DNA of 64,000 bases from Desulfovibrionales bacterium (GCA_030156255.1 JASGMV010000001.1:46935-110934), one strand, 5' to 3'. Shown: positions 44,983 to 61,134, counted from the first letter of the stretch. Translations and numbers: made by a program. The notes: generated from the sequence alone by a model not told the origin.

Positions 44983-44996
44983 TGCACCCGAGGGAA

Positions 44997-47951: not shown

Positions 47952-48011
47952 GCGCTTTGATAATGCCGTGCAACGGCTCAACCCAACACCCCTAAAAGGA
48001 GGGAGGATTCA

Positions 48012-48329
48012 ATGAAACGTTTGTTCGTCGCGTTATTCGTCGCCGGGCTTGTCCTGGCCGCCCAACCGGGCATGGCGCACACGCCGCTGTTCTCTTGCTA
48101 CGACAACGGAGACGGGACCGTTTCCTGCGAAGGCGGCTTCTCCGACGGTTCCTCGGCCGCCGGCGTCCCCGTGCACCTCTTGGACGGCTCCGGGAAAAGT
48201 GTCCAGGAGCTGAAGCTGGATCAATTCAGCGAGATAACGTTCAAAAAACCCGCCGGCGACTATTCCGTCCAGTTCGACGCCGGAGAGGGGCATAGCATCA
48301 AGGTTCCCGGCAAAGACATTGTAGAATAA
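48012..48329 (+). CDS. Small secreted protein, predicted mature N-terminus His
   Basis: Strong SD GGAGGGAGG. Signal peptide '...AAQPGMA|HTPLF'. Two Cys and a beta-rich C-terminal part. Confidence 0.65.
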   Translation: MKRLFVALFVAGLVLAAQPGMAHTPLFSCYDNGDGTVSCEGGFSDGSSAAGVPVHLLDGSGKSVQELKLDQFSEITFKKPAGDYSVQFDAGEGHSIKVPGKDIVE

Positions 48330-48357
48330 CGGCTGAGGTGTTTTTTTTTACCTACTT

Positions 48358-48380
48358 ATTTGATAATGACATTCAATTTT
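48358..48380. promoter_or_regulatory. Fur-box-like site upstream of the DUF4198-type gene
   Basis: 'tatTTGATAATGACATTCAATttt' versus the consensus GATAATGATAATCATTATC. Confidence 0.5.
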
Positions 48381-48398
48381 AAATTCAGGAGGAGACGC

Positions 48399-49193
48399 AT
48401 GTACCGTTATCTCTTCGCAGCGCTGCTTGTGCTGTGCATGAGCGCCCCCGCCCAGGCCCACTTCCAAATGCTCTACACCCCCGAGGCTGCGCTGACCAAG
48501 GGCGGCGAGTTGGACCTCAAGCTCGTGTTTTCGCATCCCTTCGACGCCGGGCACACCATGAACATGGGCAAGCCGCTTCAGTTCTTCATGATCAACAAGG
48601 GCAAGAAAACCGATCTGATGAAGGATTTGAAGCCCATCAAGTGGCAAAGCCTGACCAACAGCGGCGATGCATACGAAGCGGAAGTCAAAGTCCGGAAAAT
48701 GGGCGACTACGTCTTCTGCCTGGTTCCCGAGCCGTATTTCGAGCCTGAGGAAGGAGCGTACATCCAGCAGATCACCAAGGTGATCATCAACAACTCCGGG
48801 CTGCCCACGGACTGGGACGCCGCGGTCGGACTGCCGGCGGAGATCGTTCCTCTGGACAAACCCTACGCCCTGTGGACCGGCAACGTGTTCCGCGGCGTGG
48901 TCATGGGCGACGGCAAGCCCGTTCCCGACGCCGAAATCGAGGTCGAATTCCTGAACCATCCTCCGGTTCCCGGCAAAAACATGTTCCAGAAGCAAGCCCT
49001 TGCCACGGCGCCGCAGGACGCATTCGTGACCCTGACCATCAAGGCCGACGCCAACGGCGAGTTCGCCTTCGGCCTCCCCAAGGCCGGCTGGTGGGGCTTC
49101 GCAGCCCTCGGCGTGGGACCGCTGAAAACCTACAAGGACAAGGACAATTCTCAGGACGCCGTCATTTGGGTCAAGGCTGTCGACATGAAGTAA
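48399..49193 (+). CDS. Periplasmic DUF4198-type metal-uptake protein (NikM/CbiK-associated family)
   Basis: Signal peptide '...SAPAQA|HFQMLY' giving an N-terminal His. Family-typical 'GDYVF', 'GNVFRG', 'DANGEFAF' blocks. Family assignment is from memory. Confidence 0.75.
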   Translation: MYRYLFAALLVLCMSAPAQAHFQMLYTPEAALTKGGELDLKLVFSHPFDAGHTMNMGKPLQFFMINKGKKTDLMKDLKPIKWQSLTNSGDAYEAEVKVRKMGDYVFCLVPEPYFEPEEGAYIQQITKVIINNSGLPTDWDAAVGLPAEIVPLDKPYALWTGNVFRGVVMGDGKPVPDAEIEVEFLNHPPVPGKNMFQKQALATAPQDAFVTLTIKADANGEFAFGLPKAGWWGFAALGVGPLKTYKDKDNSQDAVIWVKAVDMK

Positions 49194-49259
49194 CTCCTCC
49201 CACAACCCTGCAAACCAGGGCCCGGCTGCGTCCGGGCCCTGGTCCCCAAGGAGACGAAC

Positions 49260-50465
49260 ATGCGAAGCAAAATATGGGAGCTCAACGAGCTGCAATGCTC
49301 CATCCTCGGAACCTGCCTGAGCATCGGCGAACTGCGCCGAATCGCCAGGAAGTCCCGACTCGACCTGCCGGAGGACGCCACGGAGTTCCATATCCATTCG
49401 CTGTTCGTGGCGGTGTGCAAGGCCAACCGCTCCGAAGCCAAGGCCGTGAACAAGGCGCTGGATCGCAAGTTTTCTTCGGCCCTGCTCAAGTTCAACACCG
49501 GCAAGAGCGAAGAAGAGCTCCGAGACCTCTGGCGACAGGCCCGGGACAACGGAGACATTCCGGGTCCCTACTGGGCGATCATGTCCAACCCCCATCTTTC
49601 CGAGCAATTTCACGCCGAGGTCTTCGGCGAGGTGCACATGCTCTCCCACTTGGTGGGATCGGCGAACCGGGAGGACATTCGCCGGTTAAGCATCCTCGAG
49701 GAAGAACTCGAACGCGTACAACGACGCTGGGCCACGGCCAAAGCCGCCTACAGAAAACGCTTCAAGCGCCTGGAGGAGGAAAACAAGGAGGCTCGGCGCC
49801 AAATCGGAATTTTGGCCAAGGAGCTCGAAACGTACAAGACCAGGGCCGCGACCCTGGCCGATCCGACCCTGCACCAGGAAAACGAGGCCCTGCTGCGTAC
49901 GTTGTCGGTGCAGTCCGCCAGCCTGACGGAAGCGTCCATGCACAACGACCGTCTTTCACAGGAGCTGGACGACACCGCCCGGAAGCTGGAGCGGCTCGGT
50001 CGGGAGGTCCTCGAAAAAGACGCCGAAACAACCTTTCTGGAAAGCGAACTGCGGCGTCTGCTGGCGTCCATAGCCCCGGATCCCTGCCCCGGCGGTTGCT
50101 CCAAAGCCGGTACGGACGCCTGCCCCGGCCCCAACCTTTGCGGCAAAAGAATTCTTTACGTCGGCGGACGCACCAACATGGTGCAGCACTACCGGGCCTT
50201 GGTGGAGCGCCACGGAGGACGGTTCGAACACCACGACGGAGGCATGGAGGAGTCCCGGCAGTCCCTGCCCAAGATTCTGGGAGGGGTAGACGCCGTGGTC
50301 TGTCCCGTCGACTGCGTCAGCCACGACGCCTGCCAACGGGTCAAGGAGGCCTGCCGCAACGGCGTCAAGCCCTTGAAACTGGTTCGCAGCTCCGGGCTGT
50401 CCAGCCTGGCGAAAATTATCGACGAACTCGCCGACGCCGCCGAGTCCGCAAGGGAGGCGTTATGA
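49260..50465 (+). CDS. Coiled-coil protein with C-terminal DUF2325 domain
   Basis: C-terminal 'ILYVGGR..HYRALVERHGG.F.HHDGG....LPKILGGVDAVVCPVDCVSHDA...VK'. Long heptad-like central region. Confidence 0.75.
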   Translation: MRSKIWELNELQCSILGTCLSIGELRRIARKSRLDLPEDATEFHIHSLFVAVCKANRSEAKAVNKALDRKFSSALLKFNTGKSEEELRDLWRQARDNGDIPGPYWAIMSNPHLSEQFHAEVFGEVHMLSHLVGSANREDIRRLSILEEELERVQRRWATAKAAYRKRFKRLEEENKEARRQIGILAKELETYKTRAATLADPTLHQENEALLRTLSVQSASLTEASMHNDRLSQELDDTARKLERLGREVLEKDAETTFLESELRRLLASIAPDPCPGGCSKAGTDACPGPNLCGKRILYVGGRTNMVQHYRALVERHGGRFEHHDGGMEESRQSLPKILGGVDAVVCPVDCVSHDACQRVKEACRNGVKPLKLVRSSGLSSLAKIIDELADAAESAREAL

Positions 50466-50839: not shown

Positions 50840-51070
50840 ATGGTCACGCCAATGAGGAGCATGAGGGTCAACCAATGCGGCAAGATCCACGAAGTCAAAG
50901 CAAAAGGGGAGCTGGGCCGCCGAATCCGCGACATGGGCCTTGTGCCGGGAACGGATCTGGTCATCGTCGGTAGAGCCCCGCTCTACGATCCCGTCGCGAT
51001 CCGCATGAGAGGCTACACGTTGACCCTTCGAAACAGTGAAGCAGATTTGATTCAGGTGGAGGTTGATTAA
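50840..51070 (+). CDS. feoA: FeoA (copy 2)
   Basis: 'G.IHEVKAKGELGRRIRDMGLVPGTDLVIVGRAPLYDPVAIRMRGYTLTLRNSEADLIQV'. GGAGG precedes the ATG. Confidence 0.9.
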   Translation: MVTPMRSMRVNQCGKIHEVKAKGELGRRIRDMGLVPGTDLVIVGRAPLYDPVAIRMRGYTLTLRNSEADLIQVEVD

Positions 51071-51073
51071 CAA

Positions 51074-53254
51074 ATGGAGAAGATTCGCGTCGCCGTCGCA
51101 GGCCAGCCCAACTGCGGGAAAAGCACCATGTTCAACGCCATCACCGGGGCGACCGCGCGCGTCGGCAACTATCCCGGCATCACGGTCGACCGGCTGGAAG
51201 GCCGTTATCGCATGGACGGATTCGACATTCAGTTGGTGGATTTGCCCGGGACCTACTCGCTCACCTCGTACTCCCTGGAGGAGGTCGTCGCCCGCGACAT
51301 GATCGTGGACGAACGCCCCGACGCCGTGCTGTGCATGATCGATGCGACGGCTCTGGAGCGGAGCCTCTACCTGGTGATCCAGCTCATGGAAATGGAAATT
51401 CCCGTGGTCATCGGCCTGAACATGATGGACGAGGCCAAGCGCAAGGGAATCCGCATCGACACGGCCAAGTTGTCCCGACTTCTGGGCGTTCCCGTGGTGG
51501 AATGCGTCGCCCGCCTCGGCGTGGGCAAAGACCTGCTCATGAAGGAAGTTGCGGCTACGGCGGCCAAACACGCCCTCAATTTCGAACCGATCAAAATCTC
51601 GTACGGCGCGGACCTCGATCCGTTCGTCGACCGGATGGTGGAGTTGATCGAGGCGGAAATTCCCAAGGGAAACCGTCCGCCCGCAAGGTGGCTGGCGACG
51701 AAGCTCCTCGAAGGCGATGAAATCATCGCCGAGAGGATGCACGCGCACGGCTCCATAGCCGACAGGCTGGAAAAAATCACCGCCGAAGCCGAAAAAGCGA
51801 TGGAGACGCGCACGGGCTCCTATCCGGAAGCCATCATCGCGGACAGGCGCTACGGTTTCATCAACGGCCTCGTGCGCCAGGACGTTCTGTTCCGCGAAAG
51901 CGACCTGCGCTTCGACTTCTCCGACAAGGTCGACAAGGTCCTCACGCACCGCATTCTGGGACCGCTCATCATGCTGGGCGTGCTGTGGACCATGTTCTAC
52001 ATCACCTTCACGCTGGGAGCCGCGCCGCAAGGCTGGGTCGAAGACGGCTTCGGCTGGCTCGCCTACCTGGGATCCACCTACATCCCCGAAGGACTGCTCC
52101 AGTCCCTGATCGTCTCCGGAATCATCGACGGCGTGGGCGCGGTGGTCAGTTTCGCTCCGCTCATTCTGATCATGTTCGTCATGCTGGTCTTCCTGGAGGA
52201 CCTCGGCTACATGGCCCGCGTCGCCTACATGGTGGACAAGGTGTTCCGCATCTTCGGGCTGCACGGCATGTCCGTGATGCCGCTGGTGATGTCCGGCGGC
52301 ATGCCCGGCGGCTGCGCGGTGCCCGGCGTCATGGCCGCCAGAACGCTGCGCAGCCCTCGCGAACGGTTGGCGACCATCCTGACCGCGCCGTTCATGGTCT
52401 GCGGCGCCAAGACCACGGCCTACATCATGCTCATCGCGGCATTCTTCCCGCAGAACGCCACGCTGGCCATGTTTCTCGTCGTGCTCACGTCCTGGTTCTT
52501 CGTGCTGGTTGTCGCCCGCATCCTGCGCTCGACGGTCATCAGGGGCGAGCATACGCCTTTCGTCATGGAGCTTCCTCCGTACCGGCTGCCCACGGTGCGA
52601 GGCGTGGCGATCCACGCCTGGGACCGGGTCTGGCAATATTTGAAGAAGGCCGGCACGGTCATTCTGGCGGTCTCCATCTTCATGTGGGCGATGATGACCT
52701 TCCCCCAGTTGCCGGAATCGGAAACCGCGGAATTCGACGCGCAGCGCGAACAAGTCGCCCAACAAGTCCAGGCGGAAAACTCCGGCATGGACGCCGCGCA
52801 AATCCAGGAGCTGATCGACCAGAGAACCCTGGCTATCGACGAGTTGGAGAGTGAAACCGCTCTCAAGAACTCCATCGCCGGGCGCGTCAGCATGGCCATC
52901 AAGCCGGTGACGGATCTCGCCGGATTCCCCTGGCAGGCCAACATCGCCTTCGTGGGCGCCTTCGCGGCCAAGGAAGTCTTCGTTTCGACCATGTCCACGG
53001 CCTATTCCATGGGCGACGTCGATCCCGAGGAATCCGCGTCCTTGAGTGAAAAAATCGGAAACGACAAAGCCTGGACGCTTCCCGTCGTCTTCAGCGTGTT
53101 CCTGTTCATGCTGATGTATACGCCGTGCATGGTTACCGTTGTGGCCATTGCGCGGGAATCCAATTGGAAATGGGCGGCTTTCTCGGTGTGGGGAATGCTG
53201 CTCTTCGCATTCGCTGTCTCCACGGTCGTTTATCAAGTGGGATCAGCGCTATAA
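51074..53254 (+). CDS. feoB: Ferrous iron transporter FeoB (copy 2)
   Basis: 'GQPNCGKST', 'NYPGITVDR', 'DLPGTYSL', 'GLNMMD', plus membrane domain. Starts 3 nt after feoA2. Confidence 0.95.
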   Translation: MEKIRVAVAGQPNCGKSTMFNAITGATARVGNYPGITVDRLEGRYRMDGFDIQLVDLPGTYSLTSYSLEEVVARDMIVDERPDAVLCMIDATALERSLYLVIQLMEMEIPVVIGLNMMDEAKRKGIRIDTAKLSRLLGVPVVECVARLGVGKDLLMKEVAATAAKHALNFEPIKISYGADLDPFVDRMVELIEAEIPKGNRPPARWLATKLLEGDEIIAERMHAHGSIADRLEKITAEAEKAMETRTGSYPEAIIADRRYGFINGLVRQDVLFRESDLRFDFSDKVDKVLTHRILGPLIMLGVLWTMFYITFTLGAAPQGWVEDGFGWLAYLGSTYIPEGLLQSLIVSGIIDGVGAVVSFAPLILIMFVMLVFLEDLGYMARVAYMVDKVFRIFGLHGMSVMPLVMSGGMPGGCAVPGVMAARTLRSPRERLATILTAPFMVCGAKTTAYIMLIAAFFPQNATLAMFLVVLTSWFFVLVVARILRSTVIRGEHTPFVMELPPYRLPTVRGVAIHAWDRVWQYLKKAGTVILAVSIFMWAMMTFPQLPESETAEFDAQREQVAQQVQAENSGMDAAQIQELIDQRTLAIDELESETALKNSIAGRVSMAIKPVTDLAGFPWQANIAFVGAFAAKEVFVSTMSTAYSMGDVDPEESASLSEKIGNDKAWTLPVVFSVFLFMLMYTPCMVTVVAIARESNWKWAAFSVWGMLLFAFAVSTVVYQVGSAL

Positions 53255-53283: not shown

Positions 53284-53709
53284 ATGCAGGCCGCCAAATT
53301 ACAGACAACGCCTGGCCGATCCAAAAAGTCGATGTTCGACTATCGTGAAATCAGGTCTTTCGAACTTGCGGACGACCTGGTCACCATAGCGAGCAGATTG
53401 CACAAAATCTACATCCGGATGGACGCGCACAACGTCTTGCAGAAGTTGAAACATCGGACGGTCGATCTCTCCATCAATGTGGTCGAGGCGACCTCGCTGC
53501 AAGACCATCCGGAAAAGGCGCTGCTCTTTGAGATGTCTTTCGAGTCACTCAAGGACGTTCGCTACGAATTGAGCAAAGCACGCACGCTCGGCCTCTGCAG
53601 CGAACCGGAGTTTTTCCACTCCTACAAGATCGTCAATGAATTGGAGCGGAACCTTTGTTCGCTCATAGCCTCATCCCAACGCAAAAAGCTGCTCGCAGCC
53701 CAAGGATAA
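53284..53709 (+). CDS. Divergent four-helix-bundle protein (23S rRNA-IVS-protein-like family)
   Basis: 'LKHRTVDLSINVVEATS', 'FEMSFESLKDVRYELSKARTLG' fit the family pattern I recall (sQlrRAa.SI..NIaEG / GS..El...l). GGAGG precedes ATG 53284. Confidence 0.55.
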   Translation: MQAAKLQTTPGRSKKSMFDYREIRSFELADDLVTIASRLHKIYIRMDAHNVLQKLKHRTVDLSINVVEATSLQDHPEKALLFEMSFESLKDVRYELSKARTLGLCSEPEFFHSYKIVNELERNLCSLIASSQRKKLLAAQG

Positions 53710-53723
53710 GTAACGAGCAATCG

Positions 53724-56054
53724 ATGCCGAAAAACAAAGACATCATCATCCGACACGACATCAGGGGCCGGATGCGCCTGAAGATCCGGTCCCTGAAAAA
53801 CAAAGAGGCCGCCTCGAACGTGACGGCCTCTCTGCAACGCCTCGACGGGTTGCTCTGGGTCCGGGCCAACCCGGCCTGCGCCAGCCTGGTCTTGGGCTAC
53901 AACCCGGAGGACATCCAACGGCGGGCGCTCCTGGAGCGCGTCAGCGCCGCCGTCGGGGCGCCGCCGCCGGTGCAGTCGACGGCGCCCTGCGGCGCGAAAA
54001 CCAAGGAAAAACGCCCGGTGCGGCGGGCCTTCAGGCGGTTCGCAGCCATCACGGCCGTGCTGGGCGCGGCCGTGTTCAGGTCCTCGGTCCTGGGCCTCGC
54101 CGTCGGCCAGACCCTGGCCAGCCCACTGGGAGTCGCCGGCCTGATCTTCAGCGCCCCGCTGGTCCGAAGCGGGATCAGGAAGCTCAAAAGCGGGCGCCTG
54201 AGCCTGGACGGCTTTCTGGCGGCCGGCGCCGTCGCGGCCATCACAGCCGGCGAGGCGCTGACCGCCTTTGAAATCTTGTGGATCAACTCCGGCTCCGAGC
54301 TGCTGACGGCCTGGATCGCGGAGCGCTCCCGCCGTAGCATCGCCGAAATCCTCGAAATCACGTCCCACCATACCTTCGTGCTGCAGGACGGCGTGGAGGT
54401 GGAGCGGGCCGTGAGCGAGGTGCGGCCTCAAGAGATCGTGGTGCTGCACACCGGAGAGAAAATCTCGGTGGACGGCGTGATCGTCGAAGGCGAGGCCGAG
54501 ATCAACGAGGCCCCGCTCACCGGCCGGGAGGAGCTTGTCAACCGAGGCGTCGGCGAGACGGTTTACGCCGGAACCTTCGTGTACAAAGGCGTGATCCAGG
54601 TGCGGGCCGAAAAAGTCGGCGACGCCACGTATCTGGCCCGCGTCATGCGCAAGGTTCAGGACGCCCTGGAGAATCGGGCGCCCATCGAGGGCGTGGCCGA
54701 CCAGTTGGCTCAAAGCCTGGTCCGGATCGGATTCGCTACGACGGCCGCAACCTTCCTGTTGACGGGCAGCGCCTGGCGCGCCTTCACGGTGCTGTTGGTC
54801 ATGGCCTGCCCGTGCGCCACGGTGCTCGCGGCCTCCACGGCCGTCAGCGCGGCCATCAGCGCGGCGGCCAGGCGGCGCATCCTCATCAAGGGCGGCCGCT
54901 ACCTGGAGGAAATCGGCAAATGCGACACGGTCTGTTTCGACAAGACCGGCACGCTGACCACGGCCCGCCCCATGGCGGCGCTCATCCTGCCCGAGGACGG
55001 CGTCGACGAACGGGAGCTGCTCCAATTGGCCTGCTCGGCCGAAATCCACAACCACCACCCGCTGGCCCAGGCCCTCAAGGAGGCCGCCGCGCGCCGAGGC
55101 TTGGAGCCCATCCCGCACGCCGTGTGCGTCTACTTCATGGGCATGGGCATGCGGGCGGTCATCCAGGAGCGGGAAATCCTGGTGGGCAACGACAAGCTCG
55201 CCGAAACCTTCGGCGTCGACTTCGGCGCCCGGACGCCGGAAATCCAGCGTCTCAGAAACCAAGGATATACCGTGCTCCAGGTCTACCGCGACGCGGAGCC
55301 CATAGGGCTTCTGGCCTTCGCCTCCCAGCTTCGGCCCGAGGCTGCGAACGTAATCGAACGCTTGAAGTCCATGGGCGTCAAGCGGTTCATGCTCGTCACC
55401 GGCGACGAGTACGGCTCGGCGAAACCTCTGGCGGACAAGCTCGGCATTACGGAAGTGCAGGCCTCCATCATGCCCGAAGACAAGGCCCGTTTCGTGGAAC
55501 TCGAAATGGAGCAAGGCCGCAAGGTGCTCATGGTCGGCGACGGCGTCAACGACGCCCTGGCGTTGAGCCGGGCCGACGTCGGCGCGGCCATGGGGACGAG
55601 CGGCTCCGAGGTCGCCATCGAGGCCGCGGACATCGCCTTGGTCAACGACGACCTGGAGGCGCTGGCCGACGTCTACGACCTGAGCCGGCGAACCCTGCGC
55701 GTAGTCCGGCAGAACTTCTGGATCGCCACGGGCTCCAACATCGCCGGCGCGGCCCTGGGCGCTCTCGGGCTTTTGTCCCCCGCGGCCGCCGGGCTCGTGC
55801 ACATCGGGCACACCCTGGGCGTTCTGGCCAATTCGTCCCGACTTCTCTCCTTCTCCACCACCAATTCGCCCGCCAAGGGCGCCGCCACCGGAGCGATGCA
55901 TGGACTTCCAAACACTAGCCAACCTGCGGCGCTATTTGACCGTCAAACACCACATTCCGGGCAGAATCCGCCTGAAGTTCAATCCGGCCGTGACGAAGCA
56001 CCCGGAAGTGAAAAAACTGATGAACGGCAATCACGAATTGCCTGCGGGTGTTGA
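53724..56054 (+). CDS. P1B-type heavy-metal ATPase, CPC type, with non-CxxC 'RGRMRLK' N-domain
   Basis: 'ACPCA' in TM4, 'FDKTGTLT', 'GDGVNDALAL', 'TGRE' in place of TGES, last TM 'HIGHTLGVLANSSRLL'. The N-terminus 'IIIRHDIRGRMRLKI' has no CxxC. Confidence 0.9.
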   Translation: MPKNKDIIIRHDIRGRMRLKIRSLKNKEAASNVTASLQRLDGLLWVRANPACASLVLGYNPEDIQRRALLERVSAAVGAPPPVQSTAPCGAKTKEKRPVRRAFRRFAAITAVLGAAVFRSSVLGLAVGQTLASPLGVAGLIFSAPLVRSGIRKLKSGRLSLDGFLAAGAVAAITAGEALTAFEILWINSGSELLTAWIAERSRRSIAEILEITSHHTFVLQDGVEVERAVSEVRPQEIVVLHTGEKISVDGVIVEGEAEINEAPLTGREELVNRGVGETVYAGTFVYKGVIQVRAEKVGDATYLARVMRKVQDALENRAPIEGVADQLAQSLVRIGFATTAATFLLTGSAWRAFTVLLVMACPCATVLAASTAVSAAISAAARRRILIKGGRYLEEIGKCDTVCFDKTGTLTTARPMAALILPEDGVDERELLQLACSAEIHNHHPLAQALKEAAARRGLEPIPHAVCVYFMGMGMRAVIQEREILVGNDKLAETFGVDFGARTPEIQRLRNQGYTVLQVYRDAEPIGLLAFASQLRPEAANVIERLKSMGVKRFMLVTGDEYGSAKPLADKLGITEVQASIMPEDKARFVELEMEQGRKVLMVGDGVNDALALSRADVGAAMGTSGSEVAIEAADIALVNDDLEALADVYDLSRRTLRVVRQNFWIATGSNIAGAALGALGLLSPAAAGLVHIGHTLGVLANSSRLLSFSTTNSPAKGAATGAMHGLPNTSQPAALFDRQTPHSGQNPPEVQSGRDEAPGSEKTDERQSRIACGC

Positions 56055-56217
56055 AAGCTATCGGATCAATCCCATGGCTCTCTCCCTCATTATCGAATAC
56101 GACGCCGAGCGCATCGATCCGGACCTGCTCGAAGAGCTCGCCGCGACTCGAAACGACGAACGCGCGTCCGCCATTGTCGAAGAACTTTATCAAACCCTGA
56201 TGCATCCAACCCAATAA
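55900..56217 (+). CDS. Stand-alone 'HIPGRIRLKF' HMA-like domain protein
   Basis: Shares the N-domain of both ATPases ('HHIPGRIRLKF....V..L......GV.SYRINPMALSLIIEYD'). Overlaps the ATPase-1 tail by 155 nt in another frame. Confidence 0.65.
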   Translation: MDFQTLANLRRYLTVKHHIPGRIRLKFNPAVTKHPEVKKLMNGNHELPAGVESYRINPMALSLIIEYDAERIDPDLLEELAATRNDERASAIVEELYQTLMHPTQ

Positions 56218-56229
56218 GGAGGCGATACG

Positions 56230-57180
56230 ATGAGCAGTCAGCACATGTCCATGCAACCCCAAACAGGCTCCTCCGGCTGCGGCGAAGACGCGGCCGGAGG
56301 CGGCGCCGGGCCGGCCATGCAGCCCCAACAAGGCCAGGGAGGCTTCAACGGCTCGGTCGCGCAGGGAGCGTTCATGGGACAAGGCCAAGCCCAAGGGCAG
56401 AACCCGAGCATGGGCCAGGGGCAAGCGGCCGGCCACCCCCAAGAGGCGGCCCAAGGCGCCTACATGGGGCAAGGTCAGGACGGCGCCCAAGGCCCCGACA
56501 TGGGGCAGCCCCATTTCTCCGCGCAAATTCCCGGCGCCGCGCCCTACCAGGGGCAACCCGGAGCCTTCGTCTACGGACAGCCCATGGCCGGCTACTACTC
56601 CATGGGCGAACAGCAGGCCGGCAGGCAAGCCGGCATGCAGGGATTCGGCGGCGACGCCATGGGCGCGCAAGGCGGATACGCTCCTCAGGCGGGCGCCATG
56701 GGCGGATACGCCGGCGCCTTCGCGCAAGCGCCCGGAAACGGCGGCGCTCCGGGGATGAATCCCGGGCAAGCCATGTATGGGGGCCAGGTTTTCGCCGGCC
56801 AGCAGGGCTCGGCCATGGACTACGCCCAGGCCATGGGCCGGCAATACGCCGCGAGCGCTCCGGGAGTCCAGATTCCCGGCGCATCTCCGGGATACGGACA
56901 GGAAAACCGGTACGGCGAGCTTTACGGATTGATCCAGGAAGCGGCCAACGGCAATCCTGACGTTTCCAAATTTCTTAATTTCTTCACCCAATCCAGCACG
57001 GAATTCTGGAAAGGCGCTTTGATCGGAACCGGCCTGACCCTGCTTTTGACCAACGATACGGTCAAGGGCGCCCTCTCCGGAGCCTTCGCCAGCGTGTGGG
57101 GGGCCTTTGGCAAGAGCGCCGAGGAAATGGAGGAAGAAGAAGACCGTAAAGCCGAGCAGCGCCTCGCCAACAAGGAGTAA
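56230..57180 (+). CDS. Gly/Gln/Met/Ala-rich low-complexity protein with C-terminal membrane-anchor domain
   Basis: AAGGAGG precedes the ATG. About 235 aa of '(F/Y)MGQGQ'-type repeats, then 'FWKGALIGTGLTLLLTNDTVKGALSGAFASVWGAF' and an acidic tail. Confidence 0.7.
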   Translation: MSSQHMSMQPQTGSSGCGEDAAGGGAGPAMQPQQGQGGFNGSVAQGAFMGQGQAQGQNPSMGQGQAAGHPQEAAQGAYMGQGQDGAQGPDMGQPHFSAQIPGAAPYQGQPGAFVYGQPMAGYYSMGEQQAGRQAGMQGFGGDAMGAQGGYAPQAGAMGGYAGAFAQAPGNGGAPGMNPGQAMYGGQVFAGQQGSAMDYAQAMGRQYAASAPGVQIPGASPGYGQENRYGELYGLIQEAANGNPDVSKFLNFFTQSSTEFWKGALIGTGLTLLLTNDTVKGALSGAFASVWGAFGKSAEEMEEEEDRKAEQRLANKE

Positions 57181-57183
57181 AAC

Positions 57184-57594
57184 ATGAGCATCGTCAGACA
57201 GACCAGCATCGCGCCCCGGGCCTCCCTGGCCATGGGAGCGGCAGGGGCCATCGTAGGCGGCGCCGTGGCCGCGGCCCGAGATATCGACAAAGTCAAAAAA
57301 GGCGACATGACCCGCGAAGAGGCGGTCAAGGACGTACTGAAGGAATCCGGAACCACGGGACTGGCGACAGCCGCGGCGACGGCGGTGGTCAGCTCCCTGG
57401 GCCTTACCGGCGTTCTGTCATTGGCCGGCCTCGTGGCTGTGGCCGTGGGAACCAAACGCCTGGCGGACAAGGCGTTGGCGAAGTGTGAAACGAAACGCCT
57501 GGCCGAAGGCGAATCGGAGGCCAGCGAACCCCTGAAATCCGCGCCGGCCAAAAAATCCACAACCAAAAAAGACGGCGCAGCGGCCAAGGCCTAG
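57184..57594 (+). CDS. MamC-like two-TM Gly/Ala-rich membrane protein
   Basis: 'GAIVGGAVAAARDIDKVKKGDMTREEAVKDVLKESGTTGLATAAATAV' resembles '[47 protein letters not shown]' of MamC as I recall it. Confidence 0.6.
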   Translation: MSIVRQTSIAPRASLAMGAAGAIVGGAVAAARDIDKVKKGDMTREEAVKDVLKESGTTGLATAAATAVVSSLGLTGVLSLAGLVAVAVGTKRLADKALAKCETKRLAEGESEASEPLKSAPAKKSTTKKDGAAAKA

Positions 57595-57614
57595 CCGCCC
57601 GAGGAGTATCCACC

Positions 57615-57944
57615 ATGAGCCAAGACACCAAGACCCCGGCGCTTCCGCCCGCGGACTACAACTACCAGTACAACTACGACCCGAGCTACGCCCAGTCCCA
57701 GGCCGCGGCCTATCCCTACTACAACCAGCCGTCCGCGGTGAAGAGCTGGTTCGACTTCAGCAACGCGAACTACGCCAAGGGCTTCGTCATCGGCGCCGGC
57801 GTGGCCCTGGTCCTGGCCAACCCGGCCGTGCAAAAGGCCATCGTCTCCGGAGCCGTCAAGCTCTGGTCCGGCGTCCAGGGCGGCGTGGAAGAGGTCAAAG
57901 AACGCATTCACGACATCAAAGCCGAAATGAGCTCCAAGGAGTAG
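57615..57944 (+). CDS. Tyr/Asn/Gln-rich N-terminus + membrane-anchor domain, paralogue of 56230..57180
   Basis: 'YAKGFVIGAGVALVLANPAVQKAIVSGAVKLWSGV' aligns with the C-domain of the upstream protein. GAGGAG precedes the ATG. Confidence 0.65.
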   Translation: MSQDTKTPALPPADYNYQYNYDPSYAQSQAAAYPYYNQPSAVKSWFDFSNANYAKGFVIGAGVALVLANPAVQKAIVSGAVKLWSGVQGGVEEVKERIHDIKAEMSSKE

Positions 57945-57954
57945 TCCCTCCTGA

Positions 57955-58006
57955 GCGGCCCGGGCTCGCCCCACCCCCGTCCACCCCAGGCCCGGGCCGC
58001 TTTTTT
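57955..58006 (+). terminator. Internal intrinsic terminator/attenuator inside the cluster
   Basis: gcggcccgggc (57955-65) pairs with gcccgggccgc (57990-58000) across a 24-nt C-rich loop, followed by TTTTTT (58001-06). Confidence 0.55.
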
Positions 58007-58034
58007 CCGATGTCGCGACGACAGGAGTAAACGT

Positions 58035-58286
58035 ATGAGTTCAACGAAAAAACGTACGGGCCAGACCGGTAGTCCGTCCAAATCCGGGACTTCCGGCCTG
58101 AGTACGGCGCAATCCCGGGCTCTGGCCAAGGCCGGCATGACCGCAAGCCTCGGCGTGCTGATCTGGACCGGATTCGATCAAAGCCGCGGCGCCCGCAGGC
58201 TGCACCGGCTGGCGGGCGTTTCCCTGGTCGGTTTCAGCGTCTGGCACCATATGCTCTACCCCAAAAAATCCGGAAATTCCTCATGA
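58035..58286 (+). CDS. Small two-TM membrane protein with His pair, coupled to the downstream ATPase
   Basis: AGGAG lies 7 nt before the ATG. 'MTASLGVLIWTGF' and 'LAGVSLVGFSVWHHMLY' are hydrophobic segments. The stop overlaps the ATPase start (ATGA). Confidence 0.55.
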   Translation: MSSTKKRTGQTGSPSKSGTSGLSTAQSRALAKAGMTASLGVLIWTGFDQSRGARRLHRLAGVSLVGFSVWHHMLYPKKSGNSS

Positions 58287-60409
58287 CCCGACGGCCCCCT
58301 ACCAACGGCTTGCGAATCATCCACCAGATTCCCGGGCGGGTGCGCCTGCACGGGGCGCGGCTCAGGGACCCCAATCTGGACATCGATTATCTGAGAGCCC
58401 TTCTGGAAGCCATGCCCGGCGTGCATTCCGTCCGGATCAACCAGGCGGCCGGAAGCGTGGTCATCCGACACGACAACGCAACCCATTGCGTGGACGACTT
58501 CATGCTGGCCCTTTCCCGGCTTCCGAAGGACGCCTATCTGCCCAATACGGAGGCGGACACCGGGCCGGACTTGCTGGAAGTCGCGGCCCACGCCGGAGCC
58601 GCCGCCCTGACGCCGTTTCTCCCCATGCCGATCCAAGCGGCGATGAGTTGGTTCCTCGCCGCGCCGTCCCTGGTCAAGGGGGCGGAGACCCTGCTCGCAC
58701 GGGGATTGAAAATCGAGGTGCTGGACGGAACGGTCAAGCTCCTGGCCCTGCTGCGCCAGGACTACTTCACCACCAACACCGTGGGCGCCCTGCTGGTTCT
58801 CGGCGAATACGTGGAGCGCTCTGCCGAGCGAAAAACCAACGATCTGCTCAAGAACCTGCTCCAGCCCCAGGTGGAGACCGTCAAGGTCGAGCGGGACGGC
58901 GTGGAGCGAATCATTCCCTTCGACCAGGCGCTCATCGGCGACGCGGTCCTGGTCGGCCCCGGGGAGCTCATCCCCGTGGACGGCGTGGTCGCGGAGGGGG
59001 AAGCGTCGGTCAACACCAGCTCGGTCACGGGGGAATCCGCCCCGGTCCACGCCAAACCGGGCGACAAGGCGATCTCCGGCTCCGTAGTGGAGGACGGCAA
59101 GATCAAGATCACGGCCGAGTCGGTCGGGGCGGAAACCAGCATGGCCCGCATTTCCGGATTCCTGGAAAAGTCCCTGCGCACGAAGTCCACGCATCAGAAA
59201 CGCACGGAAGAGCTGGCCGACAAGCTGGTCCCGCTGACCTTCGGCGCGGGACTCGGGCTGTACGCGCTCACCGGAGATTTGCGCCGCGCCGCCTCGGTGC
59301 TGACGGTGGACTACTCCTGCGCCATCAAGCTGAGCTATCCCGTGGCCGTCCGCTCGGCCATGTACGCGGCCGGCCGCGAGGGCGTCCTGATCAAGGGCGC
59401 CGCCAGCCTGGAGCGCCTGGCTTCGGTGGACGCGTTCGTCTTCGACAAGACCGGCACCCTTACCCACGGGGAATTGCAGGTCACGGACGTAGTCTCCCTG
59501 TCCGCATTCGAAGAAAACGAAATATTGGCCCTCGCGGCCGGAGCGGAGGCCCACTACGGCCATCCCGTGGCCGCGGCCGTGGTTTCGCGGGCCAGGGCCC
59601 TGGGCCTCAAATTCCCGGACATGAGCAACGTGGACTTCATCGTGGCCCACGGCGTGTCCGCCTACGTGGACGGCGCCCGCGTCCTGGTGGGCAGCCGCCA
59701 CTTCATCCACGACGACGAAGCCGTGGACTGCTCCCGCGCCGATACGGCGGCCAGCCGGCTTCGGGATCAGGGCAAGTCCCTGCTCTACGTAGCCAGAGAC
59801 GGAGAACTGGCGGGGCTCATCGCCATGCGCGACGACCTGCGCCTTGAAGCGGCCGAAAGCCTGCAGGCGCTCAAGGACATGGGCGTGGTGAAACTCGTCG
59901 TCCTTACCGGCGACCACGAAAGAACCGCCCAGGCCGTCTGCTCGCAGCTGCCGATGCTCGACGAAGTGCACGCGGAGCTCAAGCCCGAAGACAAGGCCGC
60001 CGTGGTGGAGAAACTCAAGGCCGAGGGGCGCCGGATCGCCTTTGTGGGCGACGGCGTCAACGACGCCCCGTCGCTTTTGGCCGCGGACGTGGGCGTATGC
60101 ATGCCCTCGGGCGCGGACCTCGCCCGGGACGCGGCCCAGGTCGTGCTCATCAAGGACGACATCCGCGGGCTGGCCCTGGCCTTGGGCGTCGCCCAGCGAA
60201 CCATTCAAACCCTGCAGCGGTGCGTGTGGAGTTCGGTGGGCGTCAACAGCGCCGTCATGGCTCTGGCCGGCGCCGGCCTGCTGCCCACGGCGCTTTCCGC
60301 AGCCGCCCACAACGGCTCAACCCTCGGCATTCTCGCCTACGCCGCCCTGCGCGGCGTCAACACCCCAGCCACAGAGGACATTCGCCCCCCCAGGAGTTTT
60401 CCATGTTGA
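58283..60409 (+). CDS. fezB: P1B-6-like heavy-metal ATPase (FezB-like), 'SCA' TM4 motif
   Basis: 'DYSCAIKLS' TM4 motif, 'SVTGES', 'FDKTGTLT', 'GDGVNDAPSL', last TM 'AAHNGSTLG'. N-domain 'IIHQIPGRVRLHG' without CxxC. Subclass and symbol rest on my recollection of the SCA signature. Confidence 0.85.
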   Translation: MTRRPPTNGLRIIHQIPGRVRLHGARLRDPNLDIDYLRALLEAMPGVHSVRINQAAGSVVIRHDNATHCVDDFMLALSRLPKDAYLPNTEADTGPDLLEVAAHAGAAALTPFLPMPIQAAMSWFLAAPSLVKGAETLLARGLKIEVLDGTVKLLALLRQDYFTTNTVGALLVLGEYVERSAERKTNDLLKNLLQPQVETVKVERDGVERIIPFDQALIGDAVLVGPGELIPVDGVVAEGEASVNTSSVTGESAPVHAKPGDKAISGSVVEDGKIKITAESVGAETSMARISGFLEKSLRTKSTHQKRTEELADKLVPLTFGAGLGLYALTGDLRRAASVLTVDYSCAIKLSYPVAVRSAMYAAGREGVLIKGAASLERLASVDAFVFDKTGTLTHGELQVTDVVSLSAFEENEILALAAGAEAHYGHPVAAAVVSRARALGLKFPDMSNVDFIVAHGVSAYVDGARVLVGSRHFIHDDEAVDCSRADTAASRLRDQGKSLLYVARDGELAGLIAMRDDLRLEAAESLQALKDMGVVKLVVLTGDHERTAQAVCSQLPMLDEVHAELKPEDKAAVVEKLKAEGRRIAFVGDGVNDAPSLLAADVGVCMPSGADLARDAAQVVLIKDDIRGLALALGVAQRTIQTLQRCVWSSVGVNSAVMALAGAGLLPTALSAAAHNGSTLGILAYAALRGVNTPATEDIRPPRSFPC

Positions 60410-61134
60410 GCAGCATCGACAAAGCGCCCGTGAACACCCCTCTCGTCATCGCCGAGATCGTTCATCAGGATCTGGCCGACAGGCTCGGGCGGTTGGACGT
60501 ACAGCCCGGCGACGAAGTCATGCGTATGGATGAAGAGGCGCTTTTCGGGCCGGTGCGCGTCCGCGGCCCCATGGGCGAAGTCATCCTGGCCGCGGGCATG
60601 GCCGCCAAAATCATCGCCCACCACGACGACGGGCACAAGACTCCGGTGCTGGAAATGAACCCCGGAGAGCAAGGCCACGTCGAGGGGTTGATCTGCGGCT
60701 CCGCCCTGGAGCAGGGCCTCGCCGTGCTGGGCATCCGCGAAAACGACAACCTGACCATGGTGCGCCGCATCCCGCCCATGGAGTACCAAGTGGTGGTGGA
60801 CGGCAAACGCGTCCACCTCTCCGAAGGCGCCGCGGCCAAGGTTTGGGTCAAGATGGGCGAGACCTTCACCCAACTGGCCTCGGCCGGCGCCGGGAGGCCC
60901 TTGCGCGTAGAGCTTCTGCTCGGAGGCAAACGGGCCTACGCCCATCTCGAATCTCTGGGCGTGGCGCCCGGAAAGACCGTGGTCGTGGAGCGGGTGGACC
61001 CGGCCCAGAGGGTGGGCCGCGAAGGCGTGGACCAAGTGGTCCTGGGCGCCGCCTCGGGCCTGCGGGTCTACCTCCGCCCCGACCAGGCCCAGAAAATTCT
61101 GGTGCGGGTGAAGGACGACAAAACGCGCGCCTGA
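60403..61134 (+). CDS. Protein made of three tandem FeoA-like domains
   Basis: Three ~75-aa units, each with the 'G....V..L...........L..LG(I/V).(P/E).G/N...V' FeoA pattern. CAGGAG precedes ATG 60403. 7-nt overlap with the ATPase. Confidence 0.8.
   Translation: MLSSIDKAPVNTPLVIAEIVHQDLADRLGRLDVQPGDEVMRMDEEALFGPVRVRGPMGEVILAAGMAAKIIAHHDDGHKTPVLEMNPGEQGHVEGLICGSALEQGLAVLGIRENDNLTMVRRIPPMEYQVVVDGKRVHLSEGAAAKVWVKMGETFTQLASAGAGRPLRVELLLGGKRAYAHLESLGVAPGKTVVVERVDPAQRVGREGVDQVVLGAASGLRVYLRPDQAQKILVRVKDDKTRA

What the first reader, a model, noticed from the sequence alone, without database searches (positions are those of the whole stretch)
53284..61134. Ferrosome-type (fez-like) iron-organelle cluster with components beyond the described core
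Nine same-strand genes sit directly behind feoA2B2, with gaps of 90 nt or less and three overlaps (155 nt, ATGA, 7 nt).

ATPase 58283..60409 has DKTGT, TGES and GDGVNDAP. Its TM4 metal motif is 'YSCA' rather than CPC/SPC/CPH, and its last TM carries 'HNGST'.

As I recall the P1B classification of Smith, Smith & Rosenzweig (2014), S-C-A in TM4 marks subgroup P1B-6. Grant et al. (Nature 2022) showed that the P1B-6 ATPase FezB, with neighbouring small membrane proteins, builds lipid-bounded iron-storage 'ferrosomes' in Desulfovibrio magneticus, Shewanella putrefaciens and Rhodopseudomonas palustris.

This locus has that core. It also has parts I do not remember being characterised:
- a second, CPC-type ATPase with the same non-CxxC N-domain;
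- two low-complexity membrane paralogues;
- a MamC-like protein;
- a four-helix-bundle protein;
- a 3xFeoA protein.
Basis: partly seen in the sequence, partly recalled or inferred. Interest (0 to 1): 0.85.

Follow-up and report, generated by a model that had tools for sequence, protein, structure and literature searches.

The report
Known large-type ferrosome (fez) gene cluster
This is a standard eight-gene ferrosome (iron-storage organelle) gene cluster in an uncultured Desulfovibrio relative, and its "extra" genes were already listed in the paper that defined ferrosomes, so it is a new example of something known.

Summary
Nine tightly packed same-strand genes follow feoA2B2. ATPase-2 has DYSCA, HNGST, DKTGT, TGES and GDGVNDAP.

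The ferrosome reading is supported. The "beyond the described core" claim is not.

Eight genes (53724-61134) keep the same order in most of 80 related loci. They map one-to-one onto the protein groups in the supplementary tables of Grant & Komeili (bioRxiv 2020). These are FezH, an R-rich HMA2 protein, two GxxxG proteins, group 4-1, DUF4405, FezB and a FeoA-domain protein. I verified this mapping residue-for-residue through Dethiosulfatarculus sandiegensis.

The ninth gene, a weak four-helix-bundle match, has no homologue in any related locus. It is not a fez component.

The window comes from a Desulfovibrionales MAG.

Two details seem undiscussed in the papers I could search:
- The group 4-1 protein is a true remote homologue of the magnetosome protein MamC (hhalign 99.1 %). 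Pfam and PGAP already link the two families.
- All 59 FezH-clade pumps replace the catalytic TGE loop with [T/N/S]GRx[E/D].

Verdict: a new member of a known kind, of modest interest. Ferrosome formation by this cluster type is inferred and has not been tested.

The parts
50840..53254 (+). feoA2 (50840-51070) and feoB2 (51074-53254). This ferrous-iron importer lies directly upstream and is probably co-transcribed with the cluster. It is a neighbour, not a fez gene.
   Evidence: Pfam FeoA 61.9 bits. The exact protein is annotated as ferrous iron transport protein B. The gap to p1 is 29 nt. feoAB lies next to the fez cluster in about a third of related loci, in either orientation.
53284..53709 (+). 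p1, 141 aa. A weak four-helix-bundle / 23S-rRNA-IVP-like protein. It is a lineage-specific insert and not a conserved fez component.
   Evidence: TIGR02436 scores 17.9 bits against a cut-off of 24, and PF05635 scores 17.1 against 33.8. tblastn finds no hit in any of 80 related loci. Its 90 %-identity protein cluster has only 2 members.
53724..56054 (+). fezH, 776 aa. The second P1B ATPase, published group 1-2. It has an HMA_2 N-domain with the R-rich motif RGRMRLKIR, TM4 ACPCATV and TM6 HIGHT. DKTGT is intact, but the A-domain loop reads LTGREEL instead of TGES.
   Evidence: Pfam and NCBIfam hits. Motifs and the NJ clade of 59 FezH-type sequences. The same motif class is listed for Dde_0489 and for Ga0077793_103148 in the published tables.
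55900..56217 (+). p3, 105 aa. A soluble HMA_2 protein with an R-rich motif (HHIPGRIRLKF). It belongs to published group 3-1, the class of the FezD-type proteins Sputcn32_3197 and RPA2337.
   Evidence: Pfam HMA_2 43.2 bits. Dde_0490 is 105 aa with GIAHHIPGRLRVKFS. Sputcn32_3197 is group 3-1. No hydrophobic segment was found. Long overlaps with fezH recur in 8 of 38 loci.
56230..57180 (+). p4, 316 aa. It has a long G/Q/A/P/M-rich low-complexity N-terminal region and a C-terminal FWKGALIGTG (GxxxG) hydrophobic helix. Published group 2-3.
   Evidence: Composition and motif. [FYWL]x[KRQ]GxxxG occurs in 54 of 54 family members. Dde_0491 'DFWKGALVGAAVVF' and Ga0077793_103150 'RFWKGALVGAALAL' are listed in group 2-3.
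57184..57594 (+). p5, 136 aa. It has two hydrophobic helices flanking a charged loop (…KKGDMTREEAVKDVLKESG…) and a Lys-rich tail. It belongs to published group 4-1 and is a remote homologue of the magnetosome protein MamC.
   Evidence: NCBIfam MamC NF038051: E 1.2e-13, 51 bits, cut-off 100. All 28 of 28 family members hit that model. hhalign against bona fide MamC gives probability 99.1 %, E 4.9e-19. Group 4-1 identity was checked through L016 8824-9237, which is Ga0077793_103151.
57615..57944 (+). p6, 109 aa. A short paralogue of the p4 C-terminus with YAKGFVIGAG (GxxxG). It belongs to published group 2-1, the class of Sputcn32_3194 and RPA2334.
   Evidence: BLASTP of p4 against p6 gives E 9e-8. 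Dde_0493 'DYLKGLALGAGVAL' is in group 2-1. Sputcn32_3194 is in group 2-1.
58035..58286 (+). p7, 83 aa. A two-helix membrane protein with invariant His57, Trp70 and His71. It belongs to published group 3-3 (DUF4405-like), which matches the membrane half of FezC.
   Evidence: Family alignment A4. 18 of 28 members hit Pfam DUF4405, best E 2.9e-5, although p7 itself does not. Dde_0494 and Ga0077793_103153 are listed in group 3-3.
58283..60409 (+). fezB, 708 aa. A P1B-6 ATPase with an R-rich HMA_2 N-domain, TGES, DYSCAIK (TM4), DKTGT, GDGVNDAP and HNGST (last TM).
   Evidence: It is 47-63 % identical to 77 SCA-type homologues, against 28 % to CopA and 26 % to ZntA, and it sits inside the FezB clade. 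The motifs are those the paper uses to define the group.
60403..61134 (+). p9, 243 aa. A soluble protein with two clear FeoA domains and one degenerate one. Published group 6.
   Evidence: Pfam FeoA 70.6 bits. Homologues follow fezB in 71 of 80 loci. Dde_0496 (242 aa) and Ga0077793_103155 (243 aa) are listed in group 6.

Best explanation
Bases 53724-61134 are a complete large-type (Desulfovibrio alaskensis-type) fez gene cluster. It sits behind a second feoAB pair in an uncultured Desulfovibrionales bacterium.

**Likely working.** Shown here: sequence, motifs, homology and synteny. Everything else is inferred from published work on other species.
1. Under anoxic conditions FeoAB2 brings Fe(II) into the cytoplasm.
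2. FezB, the P1B-6 ATPase, uses ATP to pump Fe(II) across an internal lipid membrane into small vesicles. There it precipitates with phosphate as a ferrosome granule, an iron store drawn on during starvation.
3. The single-helix GxxxG proteins p4 and p6 probably shape or coat that membrane.
4. The R-rich HMA_2 modules (p3 and the N-termini of both pumps) probably act as docking or hand-off modules.
5. p7, a DUF4405 two-helix protein with invariant histidines, and p5 are integral ferrosome-membrane proteins.
6. The charged loop of p5 between its two helices aligns with the mineral-binding loop of MamC. That loop faces the magnetosome lumen (my knowledge of MamC, not checked here), so p5's loop may contact the iron mineral.
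7. The FeoA-domain protein p9 may couple import to sequestration.
8. FezH is a second pump with a different metal site (CPC / HxxHT) and an altered dephosphorylation loop. Its substrate and role are unknown.

p1 is an unrelated inserted gene.
For: - **Motifs.** p8 carries the D[Y/F]SCA and HNxxT motifs and the R-rich N-terminus that the defining paper uses for FezB.
- **Phylogeny.** In an NJ tree of 161 ATPases, p8 lies inside the FezB clade and p2 inside a monophyletic FezH clade. E. coli CopA and ZntA lie outside both.
- **Synteny.** The order p2-p3-p4-p5-p6-p7-p8-p9 recurs in most of 80 loci, from Desulfovibrionaceae, Desulfobacterales, Desulfarculaceae, Syntrophobacteraceae and an Oceanispirochaeta.
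- **Mapping to the literature.** The published tables list every class. The strings and lengths given for D. sandiegensis are found exactly in locus L016, in the ORFs homologous to the window genes.
- **Experimental background.** fez operons containing the classes 1-1, 2-1 and 3-1 were shown necessary for ferrosomes in S. putrefaciens and R. palustris, and the S. putrefaciens operon was sufficient in E. coli.
- **Context.** Two feoAB pairs lie within 16 kb upstream, and the paper reports frequent FeoAB adjacency.
- **Organism.** It is a Desulfovibrionales, an order of sulfate-reducing anaerobes (my knowledge); the paper finds FezB mainly in anaerobes.
Against: - No experiment exists for this organism or for any eight-gene cluster of this type. 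The tested systems are fezABC of D. magneticus and the six-gene operons.
- No direct sequence comparison with DMR_28330, Sputcn32_3193 or RPA2333 was possible. The link runs through published motif strings and one bridging genome.
- Iron as the FezB substrate is itself an inference in the literature.
- I found no Fur-box-like site directly upstream of feoA2 or fezH in the window (best 10 of 19). Iron regulation here is therefore assumed.
- The tree is a simple NJ tree with only two outgroup subfamilies. No P1B-3, -4, -5 or -7 references were included.
Confidence: 0.85

Rival explanations
1. This is an ordinary heavy-metal efflux operon. On this reading, two P1B ATPases in the cytoplasmic membrane export Cu, Zn, Cd or Co with small accessory proteins, and no organelle is involved.
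For: [quoted passage not shown] Both pass the broad TIGR01512 Cd-family cut-off. p2 has a CPC motif like CopA and ZntA. The closest solved structures are CopA, ZntA and CadA-type pumps.
Against: - Identity to CopA and ZntA is only 26-30 %, against 47-63 % within the FezB and FezH clades.
- Both proteins fall below the Cu-subfamily cut-off.
- There is no CxxC metal-binding domain. The TM4 and TM6 motifs of p8 are the P1B-6 signature.
- Six conserved partner genes, none of them a known efflux accessory, are syntenic across orders.
- Related operons make ferrosomes.
Confidence: 0.05
2. The cluster is fez-derived, but in this lineage it acts as a cytoplasmic-membrane iron-detoxification or export system, or it is silent, and makes no granules.
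For: Only sequence is available. The insertion of an unrelated gene (p1) between feoB and fezH shows that the locus has been rearranged. No Fur-like site was found at its 5' end.
Against: All eight genes are intact, with conserved motifs and translational coupling through overlaps of 4 and 7 nt. The same architecture persists across many families, which argues for selection on the whole set.
Confidence: 0.08
3. The cluster is magnetosome-related, because it encodes a MamC homologue.
For: p5 and all 28 family members tested hit the MamC model. PGAP names the Desulfonema magnum copy 'magnetosome protein MamC'.
Against: - p5 scores 51 bits against an equivalog cut-off of 100.
- No mam genes were found among the 30 further window products scanned with Pfam.
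- The family sits inside fez clusters of D. alaskensis (Dde_0492), which as far as I know is not magnetotactic, and of Maridesulfovibrio MAGs and D. sandiegensis.
Confidence: 0.02

Closest known systems
fez gene cluster of Desulfovibrio (Oleidesulfovibrio) alaskensis G20, Dde_0489-Dde_0496 (Grant & Komeili, bioRxiv 10.1101/2020.01.10.902569, Supplementary Tables 1, 3-6)
   Same: - The same eight protein classes occur in the same order: FezH, 3-1, 2-3, 4-1, 2-1, 3-3, FezB and a FeoA-domain protein.
- Lengths are near-identical for several pairs: 105 vs 105, 80 vs 83, 716 vs 708 and 242 vs 243 aa.
- The motif classes are the same: ACPCATV with HIxHT, DYSCAIK with HNxST, and FWKGAL.GxxxG.
   Different: - The window has feoAB plus an unrelated gene (p1) upstream. 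It lacks the Fur gene and the second FezB copy (Dde_0497 and Dde_0498) downstream.
- p4 is longer (316 vs 214 aa) because its low-complexity region is longer.
- I could not align the two clusters directly, because no G20 sequence was available to me.
- Neither cluster has been tested experimentally.
Experimentally validated six-gene fez operons of Shewanella putrefaciens CN-32 (Sputcn32_3193-3198) and Rhodopseudomonas palustris CGA009 (RPA2333-2338)
   Same: They share FezB (group 1-1), a group 2-1 GxxxG protein (matching p6) and a soluble group 3-1 R-rich HMA protein (matching p3).
   Different: - The six-gene operons have FezC (group 3-2, an HMA domain fused to membrane helices). The window has that function split into p3 and p7.
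- They carry group 2-5 and group 4-2 proteins where the window has group 2-3 and group 4-1.
- They lack FezH and the FeoA-domain protein.
- In a six-gene-type cluster on Azospirillum brasilense plasmid p3, the protein in the 4-2 position shows no MamC similarity.
fezABC of Desulfovibrio magneticus RS-1 (DMR_28320-28340)
   Same: - It has a FezB with DFSCAIK, HNLAT and an R-rich N-terminus.
- It has a GxxxG protein (FezA, group 2-4).
- It has an R-rich protein (FezC, group 3-2).
- The organism belongs to the same bacterial family, as far as I know (the record calls the window's genome Desulfovibrionales; a near-identical MAG is labelled Desulfovibrionaceae).
   Different: It has three genes only. 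It has no FezH, no MamC-like protein, no FeoA-domain protein and no separate DUF4405 protein. FezA belongs to a different GxxxG subgroup from p4 and p6.
Magnetosome protein MamC / Mms13 (NCBIfam NF038051)
   Same: - p5 is homologous over about 98 columns.
- It has the same two-helix topology.
- Both share the pattern GxxVGGxxAxAxN…(E)Axx(D)xxKExxGxGxAT…K(Y)xxD.
- p5 Glu46 and Asp50 align with the E-x-x-x-D pair of the MamC loop. Papers implicate Glu66 and Asp70 of that loop in Fe binding and magnetite templating (PMC6584501). The numbering offset between the two is my inference.
   Different: - p5 scores below the MamC equivalog cut-off.
- It lies in a fez cluster, not a mam/mms cluster.
- D. 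alaskensis, a host of the family, is to my knowledge not magnetotactic.
- E46 and D50 are only partly conserved across the p5 family (17 and 13 of 28 by my count from alignment A2).
- The expected mineral here is an iron phosphate, not magnetite.

Membership tests
P1B-6 ATPase / FezB | TM4 motif D[Y/F]SCA | tested here: met
   p8 has DYSCAIK. 70 of 88 aligned FezB-type homologues have [YF]SCA; the other 18 have SCV or ACA variants. The definition is quoted.
P1B-6 ATPase / FezB | Last-TM motif HNxxT | tested here: met
   p8 has HNGST.
P1B-6 ATPase / FezB | Core P-type catalytic motifs (TGES, DKTGT, GDGxNDxP) | tested here: met
   p8 has VTGESAP, DKTGT and GDGVNDAP. Pfam E1-E2_ATPase and Hydrolase domains are present.
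P1B-6 ATPase / FezB | No CxxC or His-rich N-terminal metal-binding domain; an R-rich (RxR) N-terminal motif instead | tested here: met
   p8 has HQIPGRVRLHGA inside a Pfam HMA_2 domain, and no CxxC in the N-terminal region. RxR occurs in 77 of 78 SCA/SCV-type FezB sequences.
P1B-6 ATPase / FezB | Phylogenetic placement with FezB homologues, apart from P1B-1 and P1B-2 | tested here: met
   In the NJ tree, p8 lies inside the clade of 88 SCA/ACA sequences, with E. coli CopA and ZntA outside. The clade includes D. sandiegensis and D. brasiliensis proteins that the paper lists as FezB homologues. The test is limited: no P1B-3 to -7 references and no bootstrap.
P1B-6 ATPase / FezB | Six predicted transmembrane helices | tested here: inconclusive
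   A crude Kyte-Doolittle scan gave unreliable segment counts for these Ala/Gly-rich helices. No topology predictor was available.
P1B-6 ATPase / FezB | Localises to ferrosome membranes and is required for granule formation | not testable with these tools
   This needs genetics, proteomics and TEM.
fez gene cluster | fezB accompanied by one or more small hydrophobic GxxxG proteins | tested here: met
   p4 has FWKGALIGTG and p6 has YAKGFVIGAG. The motif occurs in 54 of 54 and 55 of 65 family members.
fez gene cluster | [quoted passage not shown] | tested here: met
   p3 has HHIPGRIRLKF in an HMA_2 domain. RxR occurs in 37 of 48 family ORFs.
fez gene cluster | Gene content and order matching a published fez cluster | tested here: met
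   The order is shared with most of 80 loci. The published entries for D. sandiegensis match locus L016 ORF for ORF. The D. alaskensis entries match by class, order, length and motif.
FezH (second fez P1B ATPase, group 1-2) | R-rich N-terminus, TM4 [AST]CPC[AS]T and last-TM HxxH[TS] | tested here: met
   p2 has RGRMRLKIR, ACPCATV and HIGHT. It lies in the monophyletic FezH clade. The published strings for Dde_0489 are ACPCATV and HIVHT.
MamC (NCBIfam NF038051, equivalog) | Score at or above the curated cut-off of 100 bits | tested here: not met
   p5 scores 51.2 bits. It is homologous (hhalign 99.1 %), but it is not a MamC equivalog.
MamC (NCBIfam NF038051, equivalog) | Encoded within a magnetosome gene cluster of a magnetotactic bacterium | tested here: not met
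   p5 lies in a fez cluster. No mam genes were found among the other window products scanned.
DUF4405 (PF14358) | Significant match to the Pfam model | tested here: inconclusive
   p7 itself has no hit at E<=10. 18 of 28 aligned family members match, best E 2.9e-5.
FeoA domain (PF04023) | Match above the gathering score | tested here: met
   p9 scores 70.6 bits against a cut-off of 23. Two domains are clear and a third is weak.
Four-helix-bundle protein (TIGR02436 / PF05635) | Match above the curated cut-off | tested here: not met
   p1 scores 17.9 bits against 24, and 17.1 bits against 33.8.

The most novel reading that the evidence does not exclude
The eight-gene Desulfobacterota-type cluster may build a more elaborate ferrosome than the tested three- and six-gene systems. 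Two parts could explain this.

- **A MamC-family protein (p5, group 4-1).** Its loop shares the E-x-x-x-D…KE pattern of the magnetite-binding loop of MamC. It may bind or template the iron mineral. That would make MamC a component shared by, or exchanged between, ferrosomes and magnetosomes.
- **FezH.** Its catalytic TGE glutamate is replaced in all 59 sequences examined by Arg, with an acidic residue two positions later. It may be a kinetically different pump, or a non-cycling regulatory or structural ATPase, rather than a redundant transporter.
Probability: 0.3. Interest if true: 0.6.

Novelty: new member of a known kind. Interest (0 to 1): 0.3.

Why it matters
As found, the locus adds one more uncultured Desulfovibrionales genome to the several hundred organisms already known to carry fez clusters. 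It changes nothing about how ferrosomes are understood.

Its use is as a clean example of the large cluster type, which nobody has yet tested genetically.

The two side observations give concrete hypotheses for cultured relatives with the same cluster. D. alaskensis G20, which to my knowledge is genetically tractable, is the obvious candidate.
- **MamC homology of the group 4-1 protein.** If this protein contacts the mineral, it would be the first sequence-level link between the two known iron-mineral organelles of bacteria.
- **The invariant TGE to [T/N/S]GRx[E/D] change in FezH.** This predicts altered dephosphorylation, which can be measured directly.

Tried and rejected
- **Nature 2022 paper.** It was not held under its DOI or PMC id. 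I used the bioRxiv version and its supplementary tables.
- **Reference Fez sequences.** I could not obtain D. magneticus, S. putrefaciens, R. palustris or D. alaskensis sequences. The single genome scan returned only the 80 closest loci. Comparison therefore runs through published motif strings and lengths, and through D. sandiegensis (L016) as a bridge.
- **Literature searches.** A search for 'FezH' hit only unrelated strings. Searches linking MamC and ferrosomes found nothing relevant. The Chem Rev review holds the terms only beyond the stored text.
- **Fur boxes.**
  - The best match upstream of feoA2 is 10 of 19 to the E. coli consensus, and no site lies before fezH.
  - Fur-like sites lie at 44994, 45426 and 48362, next to feoA1, feoB1 and the DUF4198 gene.
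  - The Desulfovibrio-style consensus I used was ad hoc, so these sites are weak evidence.
  - Upstream regions of fezH in related loci score only slightly above background (mean 11.3 vs 10.8 of 19).
- **Promoters and terminators.** The promoter scan gave 0 sites. Terminator-like sites were not above chance.
- **Hydropathy.** TM counting was unreliable for the ATPases.
- **tblastn of p2 against plasmids.** It gave only generic heavy-metal ATPases.
- **Is the group 4-2 (FezF-position) protein also MamC-like?** In a six-gene cluster on Azospirillum plasmid p3 it is not. Its assignment to group 4-2 rests on position only.
- **Magnetosome-cluster reading.** Rejected; see the rival explanations.

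Full report

Yes. On the + strand, feoA (50840-51070) and feoB (51074-53254) are followed by nine ORFs:
- p1 53284-53709
- p2 53724-56054
- p3 55900-56217
- p4 56230-57180
- p5 57184-57594
- p6 57615-57944
- p7 58035-58286
- p8 58283-60409
- p9 60403-61134

Gaps are 29, 14, 12, 3, 20 and 90 nt. Overlaps are 155, 4 (ATGA) and 7 nt.

All nine products occur as exact sequences in public annotation of a metagenome-assembled Desulfovibrionales genome (PWQ57_89-97). A near-identical second MAG also carries them.

p8 carries VTGESAP, DYSCAIK, DKTGT, GDGVNDAP and HNGST. p2 carries ACPCATV, DKTGT, GDGVNDAL and HIGHT. Both pumps and p3 have the Pfam HMA_2 domain with an Arg-x-Arg motif and no CxxC.

**2. 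What is it?**

*The defining paper.* Grant & Komeili (bioRxiv 10.1101/2020.01.10.902569) define FezB by D[Y/F]SCA, HNxxT and an R-rich N-terminus. They state that fez clusters hold two to ten genes. Recurrent components are GxxxG proteins, R-rich proteins, a second ATPase (FezH), a DUF4405 protein, a FeoA-domain protein and a DUF2202 protein. FeoAB, Fur and DtxR genes are often nearby.

*Related loci.* I aligned 15 hits from a search with p8 (3968 at E <= 1e-20) with p8 itself. I used that alignment to fetch 80 related loci from one genome per species. tblastn of all window proteins against these loci gave the following:
- The order p2-p3-p4-p5-p6-p7-p8-p9 is shown by most Desulfovibrionaceae, Desulfobacterales, Desulfarculaceae and Syntrophobacteraceae loci and by an Oceanispirochaeta.
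- Maridesulfovibrio has p5 moved to the front.
- Desulfobulbaceae and Desulfobacter place p8-p9 ahead of the rest.
- p9 follows p8 in 71 of 80 loci.
- p1 has no hit anywhere.

*Published tables.* The supplementary tables assign D. alaskensis G20 genes as follows:

| G20 gene | Published class | Features listed | Window gene |
|---|---|---|---|
| Dde_0489 | FezH clade | ACPCATV, HIVHT | p2 |
| Dde_0490 | group 3-1 | 105 aa, R-rich | p3 |
| Dde_0491 | group 2-3 | FWKGALVGAA | p4 |
| Dde_0492 | group 4-1 | 162 aa | p5 |
| Dde_0493 | group 2-1 | DYLKGLALGAGVAL | p6 |
| Dde_0494 | group 3-3 | 80 aa | p7 |
| Dde_0495 | FezB | DYSCAIK, HNAST | p8 |
| Dde_0496 | group 6 | FeoA, 242 aa | p9 |

*Bridge genome.* I had no G20 sequence, so I checked the mapping through Dethiosulfatarculus sandiegensis SPR. 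This genome appears both in the tables and among my loci (L016). The published motif strings and lengths for Ga0077793_103148-103155 occur exactly in the L016 ORFs that are homologous to p2, p3, p4, p5, p7, p8 and p9. The p6-type gene is missing only because the stored table is truncated.

*ATPase tree.* I built a neighbour-joining tree of 161 ATPases. p8 lies inside a clade of 88 FezB-type sequences. p2 lies inside a monophyletic clade of 59 FezH-type sequences. E. coli CopA and ZntA lie outside both. Identities are 47-63 % within clades, 30 % between p8 and p2, and 26-30 % to CopA and ZntA.

*Family-level checks.*
- p4 and p6 share a C-terminal GxxxG helix (E 9e-8; motif in 54 of 54 and 55 of 65 relatives).
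- 18 of 28 p7 relatives match DUF4405. The family has invariant His57, Trp70 and His71.
- p9 has two clear FeoA domains and one weak one.

*Conclusion.* Bases 53724-61134 are a canonical large-type fez cluster. p1 is a lineage-specific insert. Its four-helix-bundle matches are below cut-off.

**3. How it probably works.**

The sequence evidence shows identity of kind only. Function is inferred from work in other species.
- fez genes are necessary for membrane-bounded Fe-P granules in D. magneticus, S. putrefaciens and R. palustris.
- The S. putrefaciens operon is sufficient to make granules in E. coli.
- Loss of the genes lengthens the lag under anaerobic iron starvation.
- Later C. difficile work describes ferrous-phosphate mineral filled by FezB.

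By analogy I assign these roles:
- FeoAB2 imports Fe(II).
- FezB pumps it into vesicles.
- The GxxxG proteins shape or coat the membrane.
- The HMA_2/R-rich modules mediate docking or hand-off.
- p5 and p7 are integral membrane components.
- p9 may couple import to storage.
- FezH has no assigned role.

Regulation by iron is assumed. I found Fur-like sites only further upstream, at 44994, 45426 and 48362, and none before feoA2 or fezH.

**4. Comparison with what is known.**

The nearest described system is the D. alaskensis G20 cluster. It is catalogued but untested. The validated six-gene operons share three classes with the window: 1-1, 2-1 and 3-1. D. magneticus fezABC shares FezB and the general GxxxG and R-rich classes.

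**5. Side observations.**

*(a) p5 is a remote MamC homologue.*
- It hits NCBIfam NF038051 at E 1.2e-13, which is 51 bits against a cut-off of 100.
- All 28 of 28 family members hit the model, with best E 3e-20.
- I seeded a search with a MamC sequence recalled from memory. It returned database proteins named MamC from Magnetospirillum, Magnetococcus marinus MC-1 and Magnetofaba.
- A profile-profile comparison of the two families gives 99.1 % probability and E 4.9e-19 over 98 columns.
- The best-conserved part is the inter-helix loop. p5 Glu46 and Asp50 align with the E-x-x-x-D pair of MamC. In MamC, Glu66 and Asp70 are implicated in Fe binding and magnetite templating (PMC6584501). The numbering offset is my inference.
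- Both families already share the precomputed Pfam entry PF26373. PGAP names some fez-cluster copies 'MamC'. The link therefore exists in databases.
- I found no paper discussing it, and the preprint and its tables never mention MamC.
- In a six-gene cluster on Azospirillum brasilense plasmid p3, the protein in the corresponding position shows no such similarity.

*(b) FezH has an altered catalytic loop.* In all 59 FezH-clade sequences, the A-domain TGE loop is [T/N/S]-G-R-x-[E/D]. Every FezB, FezB2, third-type pump, CopA and ZntA keeps TGE. There is no length difference around the loop when p2 is compared with E. coli CopA (my reading of the sequences behind). In P-type ATPases this glutamate assists dephosphorylation of the E2P intermediate. 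That is established knowledge for SERCA Glu183, and I cite it from memory.

**6. Verdict.**

The fez interpretation is supported. The claim that the cluster goes beyond the described core is not supported. This is a new member of a known kind, of modest interest.

Noticed in passing
window 53724-56054 (p2); FezH-type ORFs in loci L001-L080: All 59 FezH-clade ATPases replace the catalytic A-domain motif TGE with [T/N/S]-G-R-x-[E/D] (LTGREEL in the window). DKTGT and GDGxNDA are kept. All other P1B pumps in the alignment keep TGE. This suggests altered or lost dephosphorylation.
   Followed up: partly
window 57184-57594 (p5); alignments A2 and A3: The fez group 4-1 protein is a remote homologue of the magnetosome protein MamC (hhalign 99.1 %), and the similarity includes the mineral-binding loop. 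The link is present in Pfam PF26373 and in PGAP names. I found it discussed in no paper I could search.
   Followed up: yes
window 55900-56054; loci L001, L002, L005, L007, L009, L010, L027, L058: The 155-nt overlap between the fezH 3' end and the start of the next gene is not a one-off. Overlaps of 137-197 nt recur in 8 of 38 related loci, while the others show small gaps or overlaps. It is unclear whether both frames are translated across the overlap.
   Followed up: partly
window 44900-50465: A second ferrous-iron importer pair lies upstream: feoA1 45063-45368 and feoB1 45468-47951. After it come a small secreted protein (48012-48329), a DUF4198 protein (48399-49193) and a DUF2325 protein (49260-50465). 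Fur-box-like sites lie at 44994, 45426 and 48362. Together these make the region an iron-uptake island.
   Followed up: partly
window 61169-62536 (- strand): A convergent 455-aa membrane protein with NicO and DsbD_2 domains and a His-rich loop (HGHAHSHDHDHSHSPAHDGGHG). It looks like a nickel/cobalt-type transporter and sits directly after the fez cluster.
   Followed up: no
loci L014, L017, L040, L055 (about 12.6-16.2 kb; L014 about 4.8-9.3 kb): In some Pseudodesulfovibrio-type and Oceanispirochaeta loci, a second FezB copy follows the FeoA-domain gene. Most second copies carry D[YF]ACA in TM4, as Dde_0498 does. On the opposite strand it has its own MamC-like and HMA_2 genes, forming a second mini-cluster.
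   Followed up: no
loci L034, L036, L050, L051, L063, L065, L070, L073, L076, L077, L079: Desulfobulbaceae and Desulfobacter clusters carry a third R-rich P1B ATPase type (TM4 TCPCALR, last TM HNxxT, canonical TGE) in addition to FezB and FezH.
   Followed up: no
window 8165-12715 (+ strand): A 1516-aa protein combines pentapeptide repeats with a class-I adenylate cyclase (Adenyl_cycl_N plus Adenylate_cycl). This is an unusual architecture and has no connection to the finding.
   Followed up: no
locus L083 (Azospirillum brasilense Cd plasmid p3, 3073-7112): A six-gene fez-type operon sits on an Azospirillum chromid, next to an iron ABC transporter. Its FezB is 42 % identical to p8. Similar hits occur on plasmids of Cereibacter azotoformans, Arcobacter and Vibrio.
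   Followed up: partly
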